Below, one piece after another: positions 28,490 through 34,923 of a stretch of DNA of 64,000 nt. The translations under genes and the position numbers were made by a program. Within the stretch, counting starts at the first letter, position 1; each line of letters opens with the position of its first letter. The notes under the pieces are model-generated. The model did not search any database and had not been told where the DNA came from. It saw only the letters and a list, made by a program, of their open reading frames with translations. The stretch comes from Mobula hypostoma (taxonomy: Eukaryota): assembly GCF_963921235.1 (NCBI RefSeq), contig NC_086108.1:16926001-16990000 (forward strand), written 5' to 3'.

Positions 28490-29070
28490 TAGCCCGGGGT
28501 GGGGGATGTAATGGGGACAAGCTCCCACTACTTATAAATGCTCCCAATGGTGTATATCAGAAATAGCCTCTGACAACTAAAACAAGCTCCTGGCTTTCAC
28601 GTATGGCTTAGCTACTAAGCTCAATGAAACAGTTTCAACTGACAGGAGAAGTGTCAAAGGCAGGTTACTGGCGCCTTAAAGCCCATTGCTTCTGACAGAT
28701 GGGGATTGTCAACCATGGTTTGTAGTTCATCTAGGAGAAGAAAAGCTCTGATCTCAAACCTCTGCTGCCTTGCGGCTATACCCACTCATGGGGAAGGCTT
28801 CAAGAGTAAACCCTAAGGAAAATCTGGAGCTGGTGTCCCCAAGGCAGTCCTACATTGAGTTCAACGCTAACTGGCAGCTTCTGCGATGCCACTGGTGTCA
28901 AACTGGATTGGTCTTTGCCATTCCTTTTGAGTTATCAGCTGCATGGAGGGGAACCTACTGCATTGGCAACAGCTTGCTCACCATATCATACTGCCCTGGC
29001 TTGCCTGACTTGTATATACAGCTAAGACACAACATACAGGGTCGATTTTGACCAATAGAGGGGCTTGATC
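28490..29070 (+). repeat. Non-coding repeat, probably RTE-derived
   Basis: Similar to 11070-11415; no coding remnants. Confidence 0.45.
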
Positions 29071-29166
29071 ACTCACTGCCTAATATCTAGTCTCTGACCA
29101 TCTCTTGTCATCTCAGTATTAGCACTTGCGCTTGAATAGTTTCTAGACCTTGCTACACACAAGCAT

Positions 29167-29380
29167 CAGGAATTCTGCAGATGCTGGAAATTCAAGCAAC
29201 ATACATCAAAGTTGCTGGTGAACGCAGCAGGCCAAGCAGCATCTATAGGAAGAGGTGCAGTCGACGTTTCAGGCCGAGACCCTTCGTCCTGACGAAGGGT
29301 CTCGGCCTGAAACGTCGACTGCGCCTCTTCCTATAGATGCTGCTAGGCCTGCTGCATTCACCAGCAACTTTGATGTATGT
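29167..29380. mobile_element. Palindromic Penelope-derived insertion with hammerhead motif
   Basis: ~90-bp near-perfect inverted arms centred at ~29289; 13-bp TSD TACACACAAGCAT (29154-29166 / 29381-29393). Confidence 0.9.
29286..29319 (+). ncRNA. Minimal type I hammerhead ribozyme motif
   Basis: GTC-CTGACGA-A-GGGT CTCG GCCT-GAAA-CG-TC-GAC. Confidence 0.75.
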
Positions 29381-30815
29381 TACACACAAGCATGGTCTGT
29401 TTCATTTTCTGAGTTGTGAATGGAAATCCCTAATTCCCTAATTCAGACTTTAAAATTGAAAGAACGTCACCGATGAAGCACTTGAAACGGGCTAGGCATA
29501 AAACACTGGCTTGGGGAACTTCTGCAGTGATGTTTTGGTTGTGTGCTTGGGGTGATTGTCCTCAAATAACTATAACACTTCCTTTGTACAAAATGTGATT
29601 TGAGTTGTTGTAGGTTTTCCCCTGATACCCACCAAATTCAGTTTCACCACAATTCCTTGATTAGTCAAATGCTGCCATGAGGCCAAAGGCTCACAAAGCT
29701 CTGTTGAAGTCTGAAGCAAACTACTTCAAGCAAAATGCAATGGCAATCCGGGCAGTAGTGACACCACTGGTGAGCAAGCGCTGCTGGACACCAGCTTCCA
29801 CTACTTTGTTGTTGTTTGAGAGTGGACTAATTGATAGCCTGAATTGAAATGAACCTGCTTTTATGAATAGGCACACTTTTCATAGTGTTAGTGGGTGTCA
29901 GTATGATAACGATACCAGAATGTCATGGGAACAGAATAAGCTTTTCAACCTTGCAAGATAAGTATGCCATTTTACAAGATAATTGCTGATCTTTGTCAGT
30001 ACCACTTTCCCATCCTATCCCCACTTTCCTTGAATCCTTTGTTATTCAGAAACCAACCTGTTTTAAATAAAATCAATGATTGAGCTTCCACAGTCTGAGA
30101 TAAAGAATTCCCAAGGTCCACCTCTTAGAGCGAACAAAGGAATTTCACCTCATTTTAGTTTTAAATTATTTTGAGACTATGACCCCTAGATCTAGACTCC
30201 ACAGCCCAGAGGAATATTCTCCTCACATCTACCCTGCTGCATCCTCAAATCAATGGAAGAGGTTCTGAGTGAGAAAGACATGTCCAAATCAAACAGATTG
30301 GATTGCAATGGAGGCAAATTCAATATCCTTGCAAATTACAGTTGGGAAGGTTTACACTGCAGCAGCAGGACAATTGGAACCCAATGACAATTTTAGAACA
30401 CTGATTGACGTAACAATACAGAAGAAAGAGCCCTGAAGGGTTTATTTCTCTCCATAGACGCTGCCTCACTGCTGAGTTCCTCCAGCATTTCGAGAACATT
30501 GCTCAAGATTTCCAGCATCTGTTTGGCTCATGGTAGGGGATAATTAAACAAACCTCCAAGCCAGAAGATGGGTTCACAAGGAAACAAAAGCTGAAAAAAA
30601 AGTTTAGCAATGTTTGTAGAGATCGTGTTAGCCTTTAAAAATGAGTTTTTAAAAGCAAAGTGACTTGAGCAAAGTCAATGTGATTTGTTAAGAGAAAGCC
30701 GCAAGTGGCTAATATTTGAAATATTTTTGAGAGGCAATGAGGAGTGTTAGTAAATTAGCAGGGTGTTGGCCTACATGGTTTTTAGCAAAACATTTGACTC
30801 ACTCTTATATATGTG

Positions 30816-31648
30816 TGTAACACGCTGTAAGGTTTCACTGCTAATGTAATGGTCTCCCTGTAATGTTTCACCGCTAATGTAATGGCCTTTATGTAATGTT
30901 TCATTGCTAATGTAACTGTTTCACTGTAGCAGCAATGTTTGGGTTATGACTAGAGATAACGGGGCTTTGGAATGTGTGCTATCCAATGAGAGGGATGTTG
31001 TTCTTTCTTGTGGGTGTGGGAGCAGGGATTTCACAGTCTTTTGTTGGGGAGAGATGGGGAGAGATGAGGAGAGAAGATGCGAATGGAAAGAGTTGGTAGA
31101 CTGCTGGACGGAGTGGACTTGGAACCAAGGATCAGCTACGCTCGGAGGAGGTCGACGGGGAACAAATGAACGAAACCATGAGCTCCAACGTTGTGCATTA
31201 GACTGTTTCATGAGAATGGGCCCTTTTCTTTTTTTGTTTCTTTACTAACCATATAGTCAAATTAAGAATTATAAAGCTCAATCATTTGATCGCATATAGT
31301 CTACTGTTATTCCGTGGTACTGATTTGTAACAGGGAACACATTGCGCAGCAACCACCCAAACAAGATTACTTAAATTTGGCCAGGCCGAGGGCTGTCTTC
31401 CCCTAGATTAAGTCACTAGCCAAACCGAGAGTTACAATTGTGGGGGCTCGTCCAGGATTTGAACCAGGGACTCTTGCACCCGAAGTGAGAATCATACCCC
31501 TATACCAAAAGGGCCCATTCCCATGAAACAGCTGGAGCTCATAGTTGCTACAGAGAAACCATTGCTGCTACAGAGAAACCATTACCTTAGCAATGAAACA
31601 TTACAGGGAGGCCATTACGTTAGCAGTGAAACCTTACAGCGCGTTACA
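30816..31648 (+). mobile_element. Composite LTR / antisense tRNA-Pro / inverted partial LTR element
   Basis: TGTAAC...GTTACA outer termini; 6-bp TSD TATGTG (30810-30815 / 31649-31654); LTR 30816-31436; inserted in a decayed CR1 RT. Confidence 0.88.
31441..31515 (-). pseudogene. tRNA-Pro(CGG) retro-copy including 3' CCA
   Basis: Minus strand TTGGTATAGGGGTATGATTCTCACTTCGGGTGCAAGAGTCCCTGGTTCAAATCCTGGACGAGCCCCCA versus vertebrate tRNA-Pro. Anticodon at 31482-31480; changes mostly at CpG; first ~6 nt replaced by LTR sequence. Confidence 0.9.
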
Positions 31649-32009
31649 TATGTGCTAAACTGATGGGGGCAGCAAAACCCTATGAGATCCAATGAAAATG
31701 ACAAATTAGACAAAAAACATCTGCTCAGTCATCAACAGGAGTTTTCATATCTGGCAGGATCTCTGCAATAGAATTCCACAAAACTCAGTGGTAAACTTCT
31801 TGTTTTTCATAACTTGGACAAATGTAGGCACTGTGACAAAGAAATAGACCTCTGATACCAAAATTGTCAATGTAGCAATATTCACTGAGGAAGATGTTCC
31901 TTGCTACAGGAAAGTACAAAAGTATGGTTATGTGGGCAAATCAAATTCAATATGGAAATGTGCATGTTGGTGAATTTGTGAAGGTTAAACAAGCAAAGAA
32001 ATGCATGAT

Positions 32010-33350
32010 AAATGGTAAACTGGTTTATTATTGTCACATACACTGAGAAACAGTGGAAATATTTGTCTTGCATACCATTCATACAGATAAAATCATTACA
32101 ACAATATAATGAGGAAGTACAGGGTAAAACAATAACAGAGTGCAAAATATAGTGTTACTGTCAGAGAGAAAGTGCAGTGCAGGTAGACAATGAGGTGCAA
32201 GGTCATAATGAGGTAGATTGTGAAATCAAGAGTTCACCTAATCATACTGAGGAACTATTCAATAGTTTTATAGCAGCAGAATAGAAGCTGTCCTTGAGCC
32301 TGCTGCTTGCTATGTGCTTTCATGCTTTTCTAACTTTTGTCCAGTGGTGGGGGAAAAGAGAATATATCTAAGTGGGTGGAGTATTTGATTATGCTGGCTG
32401 CTTTACTAAGGCAGCAAGAAGTGTTGACAGTAAAAATGGAAGGGAGACTAATTTCTGGATGTGCTTAGCTGTATACATAACTCTACAGTTTCTTGTGGTT
32501 ACAGGCAAAACAGTTGCTATACCAAGTTGTGATGCTTCTAAGTACGATACTCTCTATGGTGCATCATTAAAGATTGGTGAGGGACAAAGGGGATGTCAAA
32601 TTTCTTTAGCCTCCTGAACATGTAGAGGCACTATTGAGCTTTCTTACTCCTGATGTTACCATTGCTGGACTAGGATGATGTTCACTCCTAGGAACTTGAA
32701 GCTCTTAACTGCAGCACTATTTATGTAAATAGGAACGGTGTGCAGCACTCCTCTTCCTGAAGTCAATAACCAGTTTTTTTGCTGACAGCGAGGGGAAGGT
32801 TACTATCATTACACCATGCACTAGGCTCTCCATCTCCTTCCAGTTCTCTGACTCAATGTTGTATGAGATAAGGTCCATTATGGTGGTATCATCTGCAAAC
32901 TTGTAGCAGTTTGGAGTGTATACAGGGAGCACAGTAAGGAGCTGAGGACACTGCCTTGTGGAGAACCAATGCTGAGGACAATTATGGTGGAGGTGTTGCA
33001 GCCTATCCTTAACCATTGTAGCCCATTGATTAAGAAGTCAAAGATCCGTATGCAACGGGAGATGTTGAGTCCCAGGACTAGAAATTTGGAAATGATTTTG
33101 CTTGGAATTATAGCACTGAAAAAGGAGCTGTAGTCAATAAACAATTATCTAACATAAATGTCTTCACTGTCCAGATGCTCCAGATACGAGTACAGTGAGA
33201 TGAGATTTGCTGTAGACATGTTTCAGCTGTATGAGAATTGTAACAGGTTGAGGTTGTCGGGGAGGCTGGAATTAATGCATGCCATGACTAGCATCTTGAG
33301 GCACTTCATGATGGTGGATGTCAGAACCTCCAGCAGTAGCCATTAAGGCA
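32010..33350 (-). mobile_element. Decayed Rex1/Babar LINE
   Basis: FIDYSSFFSAIIPSK, GSPQGSVLS, YKFADDTT, KLVIDFRK. Confidence 0.85.
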
Positions 33351-34923
33351 TGAGCAGAGGGACTGTTTAGTGAATGTTCCCAGACTTGACTGTTCAGTGA
33401 TTTGTGCCAAGAAATTACATGAACTGGCAATGCAGGATTTAATATGAAACATTGAGGACTTATTGTGCGAATTTCATCAAATGATTACCTTAACTAGAAT
33501 TTTTAACAGTGTAAAATTCTCCAAACTAGTCACAATTCCAAGTGGACCACATTATAACATCAATTGAATTTTACATCTAACAATACTATAATTTCCAGTG
33601 CAAAACTTCAAGAAATGCAGTTTATAGAACAATTAATGACAGTTGATTCCTATTAAACATCTCAAATAATTTCTATCCCACTTTTTACTCTTGTGTTTAC
33701 CATTACTCCTCTCTTTCATTTCAGATCTCTCATGAAGTAACATTTCTCTAGAGACCAGATGAGCTGATTTCAAGACCTTGATTAATTCCACACTCTCTAA
33801 ACATAATTAGGTGCAGACAGCCAAGGTAAATGATGAAATCAGAATTCATCTGCCAGCACTCTGTGATTCACTATGTTCAAGTATTAGTCTGCTGCCCCAT
33901 TCAATGATATCACAAAGCATCATCATCATCTCAGATGAAGTTTTGAATACATAACCATCATCCACTATATCCTTCCATTATAACCTTATGTGATTATGTT
34001 TTAAATTTCCTCCATGCTCTTCTTAAGAGCAGTGACACTGGTAAAATATAATCCCACTGTGGTTAAATCTTCCAAGAGGCCATTCCTCAACTTTAAGCCT
34101 AGTCAGTAAAAGCTGTGGGCTATTAACTATGGAGAACTCCAGACTAGAACCTCTCCTTATTCTCACCTACCATCAACACAAATACAGTTTCCAAGTTAAT
34201 AAATAATAGCAGCAGAACAAAACAATTATTTTCTCCTCTCTTTAATCCAGAATCTGAAGCCAATTTTTAGATCACAAATGTTGTAGAAAACAGAGTAACA
34301 ATAGAAAATGGAGTAAGAATAAATAGTTCCTACTCATATTAAGAGGTTGTGGCTAGTGAGGTGAATTAACTATACATAATACATATTATGTTGGAAAAAT
34401 GAAATTATCCACTTTGGATAAATATAAACATCAAATATATATATTTTTCAAATGTTAAAATATTGGGAAAGTGTTCACATTCAAAGACAATTAGGAGTCT
34501 TTTACAGACACAATGGGAACTAAGAAGCAGGTATGGAAAGCTATTAGGAAGACCAATTATTACCTTTTATTGTAAAAGATGAGTGAAGATGTACTTTGCC
34601 ACAATTATTAAAAGTCCTGGTGAAACTAGGCCTAAAGAATCATGTATAGTTTTATTTTCCTAACAGTAACACTACCAATCATTTACCATACTTGGTCCTG
34701 CGCTGGCTGGTCTCTCATATGAAGAAAGTTTGAGCAGGCTAGGCCTTGTTTCTTTACAGTTTAAAAGAATGAGAGACACCTCAATGGAACATACAAAATT
34801 CTTAAGACCAGGCTGGGAAGGCTAAAACTAATGTTCACATCCCCAAATAACATTGAGGACTGAAATGAAGAGAAACTGCCTCTCTTGGAAGGTGACTACG
34901 TGGTAGGCTCAACCCCAGAGGGC

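What the first reader, a model, noticed from the sequence alone, without database searches (positions are those of the whole stretch)
30816..31648. LTR + whole primer tRNA + inverted LTR: a TIR-bounded element built from a reverse-transcription intermediate
Seen: a 621-bp LTR (TGTAAC..GTTACA, 30816-31436), a 4-nt spacer, then a PBS (TGGGGGCTCGTCCAGGAT) that does not stop at 18 nt but continues through nearly the whole antisense tRNA-Pro(CGG), CCA included. It then switches to an inverted, internally deleted copy of the same LTR (~31507-31648) ending GTTACA. A 6-bp TSD (TATGTG) flanks it; there is no gag/pol. Established: plus-strand strong-stop DNA is U3-R-U5-PBS and normally stops at m1A58 of the primer. 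Inference: RT read through the primer, then folded back or switched template onto the LTR, giving DNA with two U3 att ends that an integrase inserted. The inverted arm differs from the forward LTR in repeat count and deletions. That may mean the composite is a replicating non-autonomous family (an LTR-derived, MITE-like element with an internal tRNA) rather than a one-off accident. I know no named element class with this layout.
Basis: partly seen in the sequence, partly recalled or inferred. Interest (0 to 1): 0.9.

Follow-up and report, generated by a model that had tools for sequence, protein, structure and literature searches.

The report
Fossil of a misfired retrotransposon copy
This 833-base insert is a single, ancient, dead by-product of a Gypsy-type retrotransposon whose copying enzyme ran on through almost the whole tRNA primer and then copied the element's own end backwards, so it is a rare preserved record of a replication error rather than a new kind of mobile element.

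Summary
Window 30816-31648 holds a 621-bp LTR, the spacer ATTG and an 18-nt PBS. The PBS runs on, in register, through antisense tRNA-Pro (gene nt 72 to 7, plus CCA). An inverted, internally deleted copy of the same LTR then ends exactly at LTR nt 1. TATGTG flanks both sides.

The LTR belongs to an abundant, old Ty3/Gypsy family with PNMA-like gag, RT, RNase H and integrase. Its normal copies stop at the 18-19-nt PBS.

The tRNA/inverted-LTR junction occurs once in the 3.48-Gb assembly, so the "replicating MITE-like family" idea is not supported. The two arms share two variants seen in 0 of 19 family copies, so they come from one source. Contigs from runs labelled as other organisms carry the same insertion junctions, so the insertion is old and shared.

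Best reading: a plus-strand strong-stop DNA read through the primer to tRNA nt 7. It then switched, at a 2-nt overlap, onto a plus-sense LTR strand and ran off its 5' end. The result was a molecule with two U3 ends, inserted once.

One anomaly remains: the family makes 4-bp target duplications, while this insert shows 6/6 (or 3/4 in the 4-bp register).

A second LTR family in the genome has three more whole-tRNA read-throughs, one followed by inverted pol and an inverted LTR. The error pathway therefore recurs.

The parts
30810..30815 (.). Left copy of the flanking direct repeat TATGTG
   Evidence: It matches 31649-31654 6/6. In the family's usual 4-bp register the flanks read TGTG and TATG (3/4).
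30816..31436 (+). Forward LTR (621 bp, TGTAAC..GTTACA) of an abundant Ty3/Gypsy family
   Evidence: 82-86% identity to the other scored copies.
30826..30928 (+). Three tandem 33-bp units in U3 (family copies have 1, 2 or 3; the inverted arm has 2)
   Evidence: family D1.
31437..31440 (+). Spacer ATTG between LTR and PBS, as in normal family copies
31441..31458 (+). 18-nt primer binding site (complement of tRNA-Pro nt 59-72 plus discriminator and CCA in the usual numbering)
   Evidence: Normal copies carry the same 18-19 nt and then diverge.
31441..31508 (-). DNA copy of mature tRNA-Pro: CCA plus gene nt 72 to 7, decayed (6 differences in 66, three of them CpG transitions)
   Evidence: alignment to tRNA-Pro genes found and typed; ARAGORN detects a tRNA here on the minus strand.
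31507..31508 (.). Switch point: AA shared by the tRNA copy (nt 8, 7) and the inverted LTR (2-nt overlap). The LTR site lies at GGGCCCTTTT, just before a T-run
   Evidence: (pair I3).
31508..31532 (-). Inverted LTR nt 387-411 (23/25)
31533..31546 (-). Inverted LTR nt 359-372 (13/14). LTR nt 373-386 are missing
   Evidence: (I5).
31547..31559 (-). Extra copy from a 20-nt local duplication at the deletion joint. LTR nt 123-358 are missing
   Evidence: family D2.
31560..31648 (-). Inverted LTR nt 77-122 and 1-43 (82/89), ending exactly at LTR nt 1 (..GTTACA)
   Evidence: two variants shared with the forward arm and with 0 of 19 family copies.
31649..31654 (.). Right copy of the flanking direct repeat TATGTG

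Best explanation
This is a one-off, dead insertion of an aberrant reverse-transcription product of a Ty3/Gypsy-type LTR retrotransposon.

1. A plus-strand strong-stop DNA (U3-R-U5, spacer, PBS) did not stop after 18 nt of the tRNA-Pro primer. It copied the primer down to nt 7.
2. Its 3' end then paired through a 2-nt overlap with a plus-sense LTR strand at LTR nt ~411. That strand was either its own 5' part (fold-back) or a second nascent plus strand paused before a T-run.
3. It copied that strand back to its 5' end at U3 nt 1. If the partner was a second plus strand, mutual extension gives a complete duplex directly.
4. The duplex had TGTAAC..GTTACA at both ends and was inserted once into the germline, most likely by the element's integrase.
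5. It has since decayed and is shared by related organisms.

Shown: the anatomy, its single-copy state, the parent family, the common origin of the two arms, and shared presence in other organisms' reads.
Inferred: the order of the events, which template was used, and the use of integrase.
For: 1. The PBS continues in register into antisense tRNA-Pro, with CCA that the genes lack. Only reverse transcription of a mature primer explains this.
2. Normal family copies stop at the PBS. In one search, 39 of 39 other scored places end at query 58-63. In one search, none of the other scored places passes query 647.
3. The inverted arm ends exactly at LTR nt 1, next to a direct repeat of the left flank. 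That is what run-off on a PPT-primed plus strand and insertion as one unit predict.
4. The arms share C at LTR 42 and T at LTR 89, which 0 of the 19 family copies that aligned without gaps have (29 were tried). In run X1 the family-wide letter holds about 99% of depth at 30857, 94% at 31607 and 98% at 31593.
5. The parent has gag (PNMA-like), RVT_1, RT_RNaseH_2, Integrase_H2C2 and rve in Gypsy order, a PPT and a PBS.
6. The junction is single-copy. A 157-nt contig of run X1 covers 31430-31586 with 0 differences (possibly the same sample as the assembly).
7. The left junction is seen in contigs of runs labelled organisms B and I, and the right junction in organism C.
8. [quoted passage not shown]
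9. The same logic recurs in a second LTR family. Locus L043+L060 has a forward LTR, a PBS plus 69 nt of tRNA-Pro ending at nt 7, then pol on the opposite strand. An inverted LTR follows that is 94.9% identical to the forward one over 355 nt.
Against: 1. The family's target duplication is 4 bp. Of 19 evaluable copies, 11 are perfect, 6 match 3 of 4 and 2 show none. This insert shows 6/6 at 6 bp but only 3/4 at 4 bp. So either the integration was atypical, or the 6-mer match is partly chance in a TA/TG-rich site.
2. The inverted arm is no closer to its own forward arm (82/89) than to ordinary 2-unit family copies (79-84 of 89). Overall similarity therefore does not single out the partner.
3. Of the 7 arm differences in those 89 columns, the forward arm carries the rare letter in 6 and the inverted arm in 1. 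This asymmetry is unexplained.
4. The arms differ by one 33-bp unit, two deletions and a 20-nt duplication. It cannot be told whether these arose during synthesis or later.
5. No empty orthologous site was seen.
Confidence: 0.72

Rival explanations
1. Same aberrant cDNA, but it entered the chromosome without integrase. The linear or hairpin cDNA was captured at a chromosome break by end joining, or by one-ended joining and fill-in.
For: The flanking repeat is 6 bp, while 11 of 19 evaluable family copies have a perfect 4-bp duplication and none a 6-bp one. A pure fold-back product would be a hairpin with only one open end, which is a poor integrase substrate (inference).
Against: Both ends are exact LTR termini (TGTAAC / GTTACA) with no loss or filler, as in integrase-made insertions of the family. 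At the 4-bp register the flanks match 3/4, as good as 6 of the 19 family copies. End joining does not as a rule give a clean direct repeat (established knowledge, not tested here).
Confidence: 0.15
2. Rearrangement after insertion. An ordinary or read-through insertion (LTR-PBS-tRNA..) later gained the inverted arm, either by a replication fold-back or inversion, or by a second insertion of the same family next to it followed by deletion.
For: Long inverted repeats are unstable, and the arm carries deletions and a duplication. The family is very abundant (6051 first-look candidates), so neighbouring insertions are not rare. The inverted arm is not closer overall to its own forward arm than to other copies.
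Against: The inverted arm stops exactly at LTR nt 1 and is followed by a repeat of the 6 nt that precede the forward LTR. A chromosomal fold-back would not end there. The arms share two variants absent from 19 of 19 family copies. The joint lies at tRNA nt 7, the same place where the tRNA copy ends in two other read-through loci. That points to a reverse-transcription event.
Confidence: 0.08
3. One reading: a replicating, non-autonomous, TIR-bounded family (an LTR-derived, MITE-like element with an internal tRNA).
For: It has terminal inverted repeats of about 90 nt, a flanking direct repeat and no coding capacity.
Against: There is one copy only. All 17 candidates for the junction query were scored, and only the window's own locus spans the joint. 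None of 39 other scored LTR-PBS places runs on into the tRNA. The search needs fairly close similarity and skips very common words, so strongly diverged copies could be missed.
Confidence: 0.03
4. Assembly artefact (a chimeric or palindromic mis-join).
For: Inverted repeats can arise from library or assembly errors.
Against: The arms are only 92% alike (118/128), unlike a technical palindrome. Short-read contigs of run X1 cover the left junction, the PBS-tRNA-inverted-arm stretch (31430-31586) and the right junction with 0 differences. Runs labelled as other organisms carry the junctions with 1.4-9% differences in the flanks.
Confidence: 0.01

Closest known systems
Defective HIV-1 proviruses made by deferred (delayed) second-strand transfer, with a tRNA(Lys-3) insert next to the PBS (PMC12657518; passages read)
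   Same: Plus-strand synthesis runs past the 18-nt PBS into the primer tRNA. The tRNA insert marks the joint to the next template, and the product is integrated and defective.
   Different: In HIV the inserts are 7-54 nt, and synthesis resumes on the minus-strand DNA further downstream in the same orientation, giving an internal deletion with both LTRs direct. Here 50 further nt are copied (down to tRNA nt 7), and synthesis resumes on a plus-sense LTR strand. That gives an inverted arm, no internal region, and two U3 ends. This one is also a germline fossil in a Ty3/Gypsy family rather than a somatic provirus.
Circular MLV DNA with a reverse-transcribed tRNA between the LTRs (Colicelli & Goff 1986), known to me only as described and cited in PMC12220202 (passages read)
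   Same: A DNA copy of a tRNA joined to LTR sequence in a retroviral DNA form.
   Different: That was an unintegrated circle with direct LTRs, and by that account a tRNA-Gly acting as a spurious primer. Here the cognate primer tRNA is continuous with the PBS, and the form is integrated with an inverted LTR. I did not read the original paper.
Solo LTRs and normal copies of the parent Ty3/Gypsy family in this genome
   Same: Same LTR, same termini, same spacer and PBS.
   Different: Solo LTRs carry no PBS or tRNA and have 4-bp duplications. Full copies have direct LTRs, a PPT and gag-pol.
Family-2 locus L043+L060 of the same genome (found here)
   Same: Forward LTR, spacer, PBS running on into antisense tRNA-Pro with CCA down to nt 7, then sequence of the same element in inverted sense, ending in an inverted LTR.
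   Different: It is a different LTR family. The switch landed in pol, about 3.5 kb from the inverted LTR. The inverted LTR lacks its first 50 nt and is split by a roughly 2-kb insert. No flanking duplication could be read.
MITEs and other TIR-bounded non-autonomous DNA transposons
   Same: Short, non-coding, terminal inverted repeats, flanking direct repeat.
   Different: It is single-copy. The arms are U3 of an LTR retrotransposon, and the core is a reverse-transcribed primer tRNA.

Membership tests
Parent: Ty3/Gypsy-type LTR retrotransposon family (tested on family copies, not on the insert) | Direct LTRs with TG..CA termini | tested here: met
   paired LTRs 5-8 kb apart, TGTAAC..GTTACA.
Parent: Ty3/Gypsy-type LTR retrotransposon family (tested on family copies, not on the insert) | PBS complementary to a tRNA 3' end after the 5' LTR, and a polypurine tract before the 3' LTR | tested here: met
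   ATTG plus an 18-19 nt tRNA-Pro PBS, and a G/A-rich tract directly before 3' LTRs (L014, L020, L022, L027, L048, L049).
Parent: Ty3/Gypsy-type LTR retrotransposon family (tested on family copies, not on the insert) | gag, then RT, RNase H, integrase in that order | tested here: met
   on L048 (minus strand): PNMA-like gag, RVT_1 / RT_RNaseH_2, Integrase_H2C2, rve. The frames are broken in this copy.
Complete or non-autonomous LTR retrotransposon (TRIM/LARD-like): the insert itself | Two LTRs in direct orientation, with PBS and PPT between them | tested here: not met
   the second LTR piece is inverted, and no PPT is present.
Solo LTR | One LTR alone, flanked by the family's target duplication | tested here: not met
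   PBS, tRNA copy and inverted arm follow the LTR. The flank repeat is 6 bp against the family's 4 bp.
MITE / TIR DNA transposon family | Many copies with the same internal structure at different sites | tested here: not met
   (17 of 17 candidates scored; only the window's own locus spans the joint).
Provirus from deferred second-strand transfer (HIV-1 type, PMC12657518) | PBS followed in register by further primer-tRNA nucleotides | tested here: met
   66 gene nt plus CCA, 60/66 identical to tRNA-Pro genes.
Provirus from deferred second-strand transfer (HIV-1 type, PMC12657518) | After the tRNA insert the sequence resumes downstream in the same orientation, with a direct 3' LTR | tested here: not met
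   the sequence resumes in U3 in inverted sense.
tRNA-derived SINE (definition recalled, no call) | Sense tRNA-related head at the 5' end of a high-copy retroposon | tested here: not met
   single copy. The tRNA copy is internal and continuous with the PBS.

The most novel reading that the evidence does not exclude
Whole-primer read-through followed by a switch onto a plus-sense strand may be a regular, so far unnamed side pathway of LTR-retroelement replication. It would yield molecules with two U3 ends that can still be inserted.

This genome would then hold a fossil series of such products: the window's insert, L043+L060, and related read-through copies ending at tRNA nt 7. The pathway would be a route by which LTR elements spawn TIR-bounded, hairpin-forming loci.

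The shared stop at tRNA nt 7 would mark a defined biochemical limit of the enzyme on the primer.
Probability: 0.3. Interest if true: 0.65.

Novelty: new variant of a known kind. Interest (0 to 1): 0.5.

Why it matters
Errors of plus-strand transfer are usually studied in cell culture or in HIV reservoirs. Here a vertebrate germline has preserved one, joint by joint: where the enzyme left the primer (nt 7), where it landed (2-nt overlap before a T-run), and where it ran off (U3 nt 1).

It indicates that DNA with two U3 ends was inserted into a germline, though whether the element's integrase did it remains inferred. Together with three further read-through copies in a second LTR family, it shows that the block at the primer's position 58 has been bypassed at least four times in this lineage's record.

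It also gives annotators a practical warning. An LTR followed by a "tRNA" and an inverted repeat can be a replication by-product, not a tRNA gene, a SINE or a DNA transposon.

Tried and rejected
- ARAGORN's label tRNA-Arg(TCG) was rejected. Alignment to this genome's tRNA genes shows tRNA-Pro.
- The Rfam scan of 29000-33500 at E<=0.01 gave no tRNA match for the decayed copy.
- I first took a purine run (AGAGAG..) at both ends of the L043 inverted repeat for PPT primers left on the plus strands. A normal 3' LTR with its true PPT (L061) shows the run lies inside the LTR, so I dropped that idea.
- I tested whether removing a different 33-bp unit from the forward arm makes the arms more alike. It does not; the maximum stays 82/89.
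- I tested whether the inverted arm is closer to its own forward arm than to other copies. It is not.
- Read laying listed no joint from 30815 to 31649 (an empty site) among the rows shown. 500 further joints were not shown, so this says nothing either way. Cover of the 31480-31528 bin in runs X5, X9 and X19 is mixed with tRNA-gene contigs and was not used.
- The repeat finder on L043/L044 failed on a strand format error. No inverted repeat lay within the 3-kb loci; the inverted LTR of L043 appeared only after 5 kb more were fetched.
- Literature: eight searches found no description of an integrated LTR-tRNA-inverted-LTR element. The library lacks most subscription journals and old scans. A 1985 paper by Olsen and Swanstrom on defective avian retrovirus DNA, which I recall only vaguely, could not be found and was not used.
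- The search of earlier findings returned nothing for these words or this place.

Full report
**What is there.** The window is G000:C50:16926001-16990000 of a 3.48-Gb, 200-contig assembly.
- At 30816-31436 lies a 621-bp repeat that starts TGTAAC and ends GTTACA.
- The spacer ATTG follows, then TGGGGGCTCGTCCAGGAT (31441-31458).
- The sequence does not leave the tRNA there. From 31444 to 31508 it aligns to the antisense of 72-nt tRNA-Pro genes of this genome over gene nt 72 to 7, with 60 of 66 identical. Those genes were found and typed by ARAGORN as Pro-AGG, -CGG and -TGG.
- TGG at 31441-31443 is the complement of CCA, which the genes do not encode. The template was therefore a mature tRNA.
- Three of the six differences are CpG transitions (read from the alignment).
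- ARAGORN finds a tRNA on the minus strand at 31441-31515 but calls it Arg(TCG). Rfam gives no tRNA match at E<=0.01. Both fit a decayed copy.
- The anticodon triplet now reads CGG, but a Pro-AGG gene is equally near.

**The inverted arm.** From 31507/31508 on, the sequence is the reverse complement of the same LTR.
- Nt 387-411 match 23/25 and nt 359-372 match 13/14.
- After a 20-nt local duplication, nt 77-122 match 42/46 and nt 1-43 match 40/43. The total is 118/128.
- LTR nt 123-358 and 373-386, and one of the three 33-bp units, are absent.
- The arm ends exactly at LTR nt 1 (..GTTACA, 31648).
- The tRNA copy and the inverted LTR overlap by two bases (AA, 31507-31508).
- The landing site in the LTR is GGGCCCTTTT, just before a T-run.
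- TATGTG lies directly outside both ends (30810-30815, 31649-31654).

**The parent family.**
- The LTR matches many places at 82-86% (6051 first-look candidates, 40 scored).
- Paired LTRs 5-8 kb apart exist.
- One such copy (L048) encodes, on the element's strand and in this order, a PNMA-like gag, RVT_1 with RT_RNaseH_2, Integrase_H2C2 and rve. Its frames are broken. This is the Ty3/Gypsy order.
- Normal 5' LTRs are followed by ATTG, the 18-nt PBS and one further T, and then by unrelated leader sequence.
- 3' LTRs are preceded by a G/A-rich tract.
- In a search with LTR end + PBS + tRNA (31400-31495), all 39 other scored places end at query 58-63, which is at the PBS (40 scored of 269 candidates).

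**Copy number.** A query across the tRNA/inverted-LTR joint (31456-31560) gave 17 candidates, all scored. Only the window's own locus spans the joint. The other 16 match only the first 47-53 nt, the tRNA part. The composite is therefore single-copy at the sensitivity of that search. The search needs fairly close similarity and skips very common words.

**One source for both arms.**
- In the 89 columns of LTR 1-43 and 77-122, the arms agree at two positions (LTR 42 = C, LTR 89 = T) where none of 19 family copies has that letter. Those 19 are the copies, of 29 loci tried, that aligned without gaps.
- Read contigs say the same. In run X1 the family-wide letter holds about 99% of depth at 30857, about 94% at 31607 (both LTR 42), and about 98% at 31593 (LTR 89 in the inverted arm).
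- Against a special kinship, the inverted arm matches its own forward arm 82/89, while ordinary two-unit copies match it 79-84 of 89.
- Of the seven arm differences, the forward arm has the rare letter in six.
- I read this as one source molecule or lineage within a family that was then nearly uniform, followed by independent decay. The asymmetry remains unexplained.

**Age and reality.**
- Contigs of run X1 (organism A, possibly the assembly's own sample) cover 30500-30841, 31430-31586 and 31622-31950 with no differences.
- A contig of X5 (organism B) covers 30500-30847 with 5 differences.
- One of X19 (organism I) covers 30500-30841 with 15 differences and a gap.
- One of X9 (organism C) covers 31612-31921 with 28 differences and 2 gaps.
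- So an LTR end of this family sits at the same site, on the proper side, in runs labelled as other organisms whose flanks differ by about 1.4%, 4.7% and 9.7%.
- The insertion is old and shared, and it is not an assembly artefact. No single contig spans the whole insert.

**Target duplication.**
- In the parent family I could evaluate 13 solo LTRs and 6 full-length copies.
- Eleven have a perfect 4-bp duplication (for example GTTC, CCAG, CAAC, TCTG, CTTG). Six match 3 of 4, and two show none. L002 and L054 were not evaluable.
- The window's insert has 6/6 at a 6-bp register and 3/4 (TGTG / TATG) at the 4-bp register, in a TA/TG-rich site.
- Either the insertion was atypical, or a 4-bp duplication later mutated and the 6-mer identity is partly chance. 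I cannot decide between these; an empty site would.

**Mechanism.**
- Established knowledge: plus-strand strong-stop DNA starts at the PPT. It copies U3-R-U5 of the minus strand and then 18 nt of the still attached primer. It normally stops at m1A58. That m1A58 is required for this stop in vitro is stated in the abstract of PMC8599865.
- Here the stop failed and the primer was copied down to nt 7.
- The next stretch is the complement of plus-sense U3 and ends at U3 nt 1. So the new template was a plus strand whose 5' end is the PPT cleavage site. A genomic RNA template would have led on into the PPT and beyond.
- The template may have been the same strand folded back, or a second nascent plus strand.
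- The second option has one advantage: two 3' ends that pair and extend each other give a full duplex with two U3 ends at once. A fold-back gives a hairpin with a single open end.
- Both ends of the duplex read ..GTTACA-3', like a normal U5 end, so integrase could act on them. All of this paragraph after the first bullet is inference from the anatomy.

**Recurrence.** Two of the tRNA-like hits (L043, L044) turned out to be a second LTR family (3184 first-look candidates) whose PBS runs on into antisense tRNA-Pro with CCA, for 69 and 63 nt.
- Of the 41 matches, 3 reach the end of the tRNA part (L044 itself, L043, and C12:186020891-186020993). Twenty-four stop 6-8 nt after the 18-nt PBS, and 14 at the LTR end.
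- In L043 the 1.5 kb after the tRNA carries an RVT_1/RT_RNaseH_2 frame on the opposite strand.
- In two normal copies the same segment lies 2.9-5.4 kb downstream of the 5' LTR-PBS, in the other orientation.
- With 5 kb more (L060), an inverted LTR appears 3.5 kb from the joint. It is 94.9% identical to the forward LTR over 355 nt and 89.3% over 393 nt. It is split by a roughly 2-kb insert and lacks its first 50 nt.
- In the C12 locus, a piece made of the last ~52 nt of the LTR, the spacer, the PBS and an internally deleted tRNA copy sits ~200 nt downstream of the normal PBS, just past an ATG that I take by eye to be the start of gag.
- The tRNA copy ends at nt 7 in the window, in L043 and in C12, and at nt 13/14 in L044.
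- L044's next 756 nt had no other match among the 40 scored, but that search was dominated by another repeat.

**Comparison with what is known.**
- The first half of the event is in print. PMC12657518 (passages read) reports one HIV-1 provirus and 43 GenBank sequences with tRNA(Lys-3) inserts of 7-54 nt at a deletion joint, under the name deferred second-strand transfer. There, synthesis resumes downstream on the minus strand in the same orientation.
- PMC12220202 (passages read) cites a 1986 report of a tRNA copy between the LTRs of a circular MLV DNA. I did not read the original.
- Eight full-text searches gave no description of an integrated LTR / whole primer / inverted LTR element. The library misses most subscription journals, so this is no proof of absence.

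**Verdict.** The "replicating family" idea is refuted at the sensitivity available. The TSD does not match the parent. I class it as a new variant of a known kind of replication error, of moderate interest. Its value is raised by the second example and by the shared stop at tRNA nt 7.

Noticed in passing
L043+L060 (G000:C63:62702060-62710112, minus strand): A second LTR family shows the same layout on a larger scale. It has a forward LTR, a PBS running into 69 nt of antisense tRNA-Pro with CCA (ending at tRNA nt 7), and then about 3.5 kb of the element's own pol/gag region in inverted sense. An inverted LTR follows (94.9% identical over 355 nt), split by a roughly 2-kb insert and lacking its first 50 nt.
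   Followed up: partly
L044:880-1548 (G000:C45): Family-2 LTR (5' part missing or different) plus PBS plus 63 nt of antisense tRNA-Pro, ending at tRNA nt 13/14. It is followed by 756 nt with no other match among the 40 places scored. It may be a bare read-through strong-stop DNA insertion.
   Followed up: partly
L062 (G000:C12:186019300-186022200, minus strand), positions about 1208-1316 of the reverse complement: About 200 nt downstream of the normal PBS of a family-2 copy, apparently inside gag (read by eye, no domain search), sits a second piece. It is made of the last ~52 nt of the LTR, the spacer, the PBS and an internally deleted tRNA-Pro copy that again ends at tRNA nt 7.
   Followed up: partly
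Family-2 5' LTR junctions (L062): Normal family-2 copies match tRNA-Pro for about 24 nt (the 18-nt PBS plus TTGAAC). Twenty-four of the 41 matches end 6-8 nt past the 18-nt PBS.
   Followed up: no
window 30826-30928 and family LTRs L002-L030: The 33-bp tandem unit near the LTR start varies in number among copies: 1 (L010, L021, L026), 2 (most) or 3 (window, L002, L019).
   Followed up: partly
window 29232-29347: A palindromic stretch matches two microRNA-precursor models (mir-3926, mir-2131) on both strands, far below their gathering scores. It is probably a hairpin-forming repeat, not a miRNA gene.
   Followed up: no
L048:3530-3955 (minus strand): Inside the full-length parent copy, one open frame between the RNase H and integrase pieces matches Pfam ALKBH8_N (E 5e-8). 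It may be a foreign fragment nested in the element.
   Followed up: no
L046:1489-1560 (G000:C80): A tRNA gene with a Pro-like body but anticodon CAT (ARAGORN: tRNA-Met). It is 86-88% like the window's tRNA copy.
   Followed up: no
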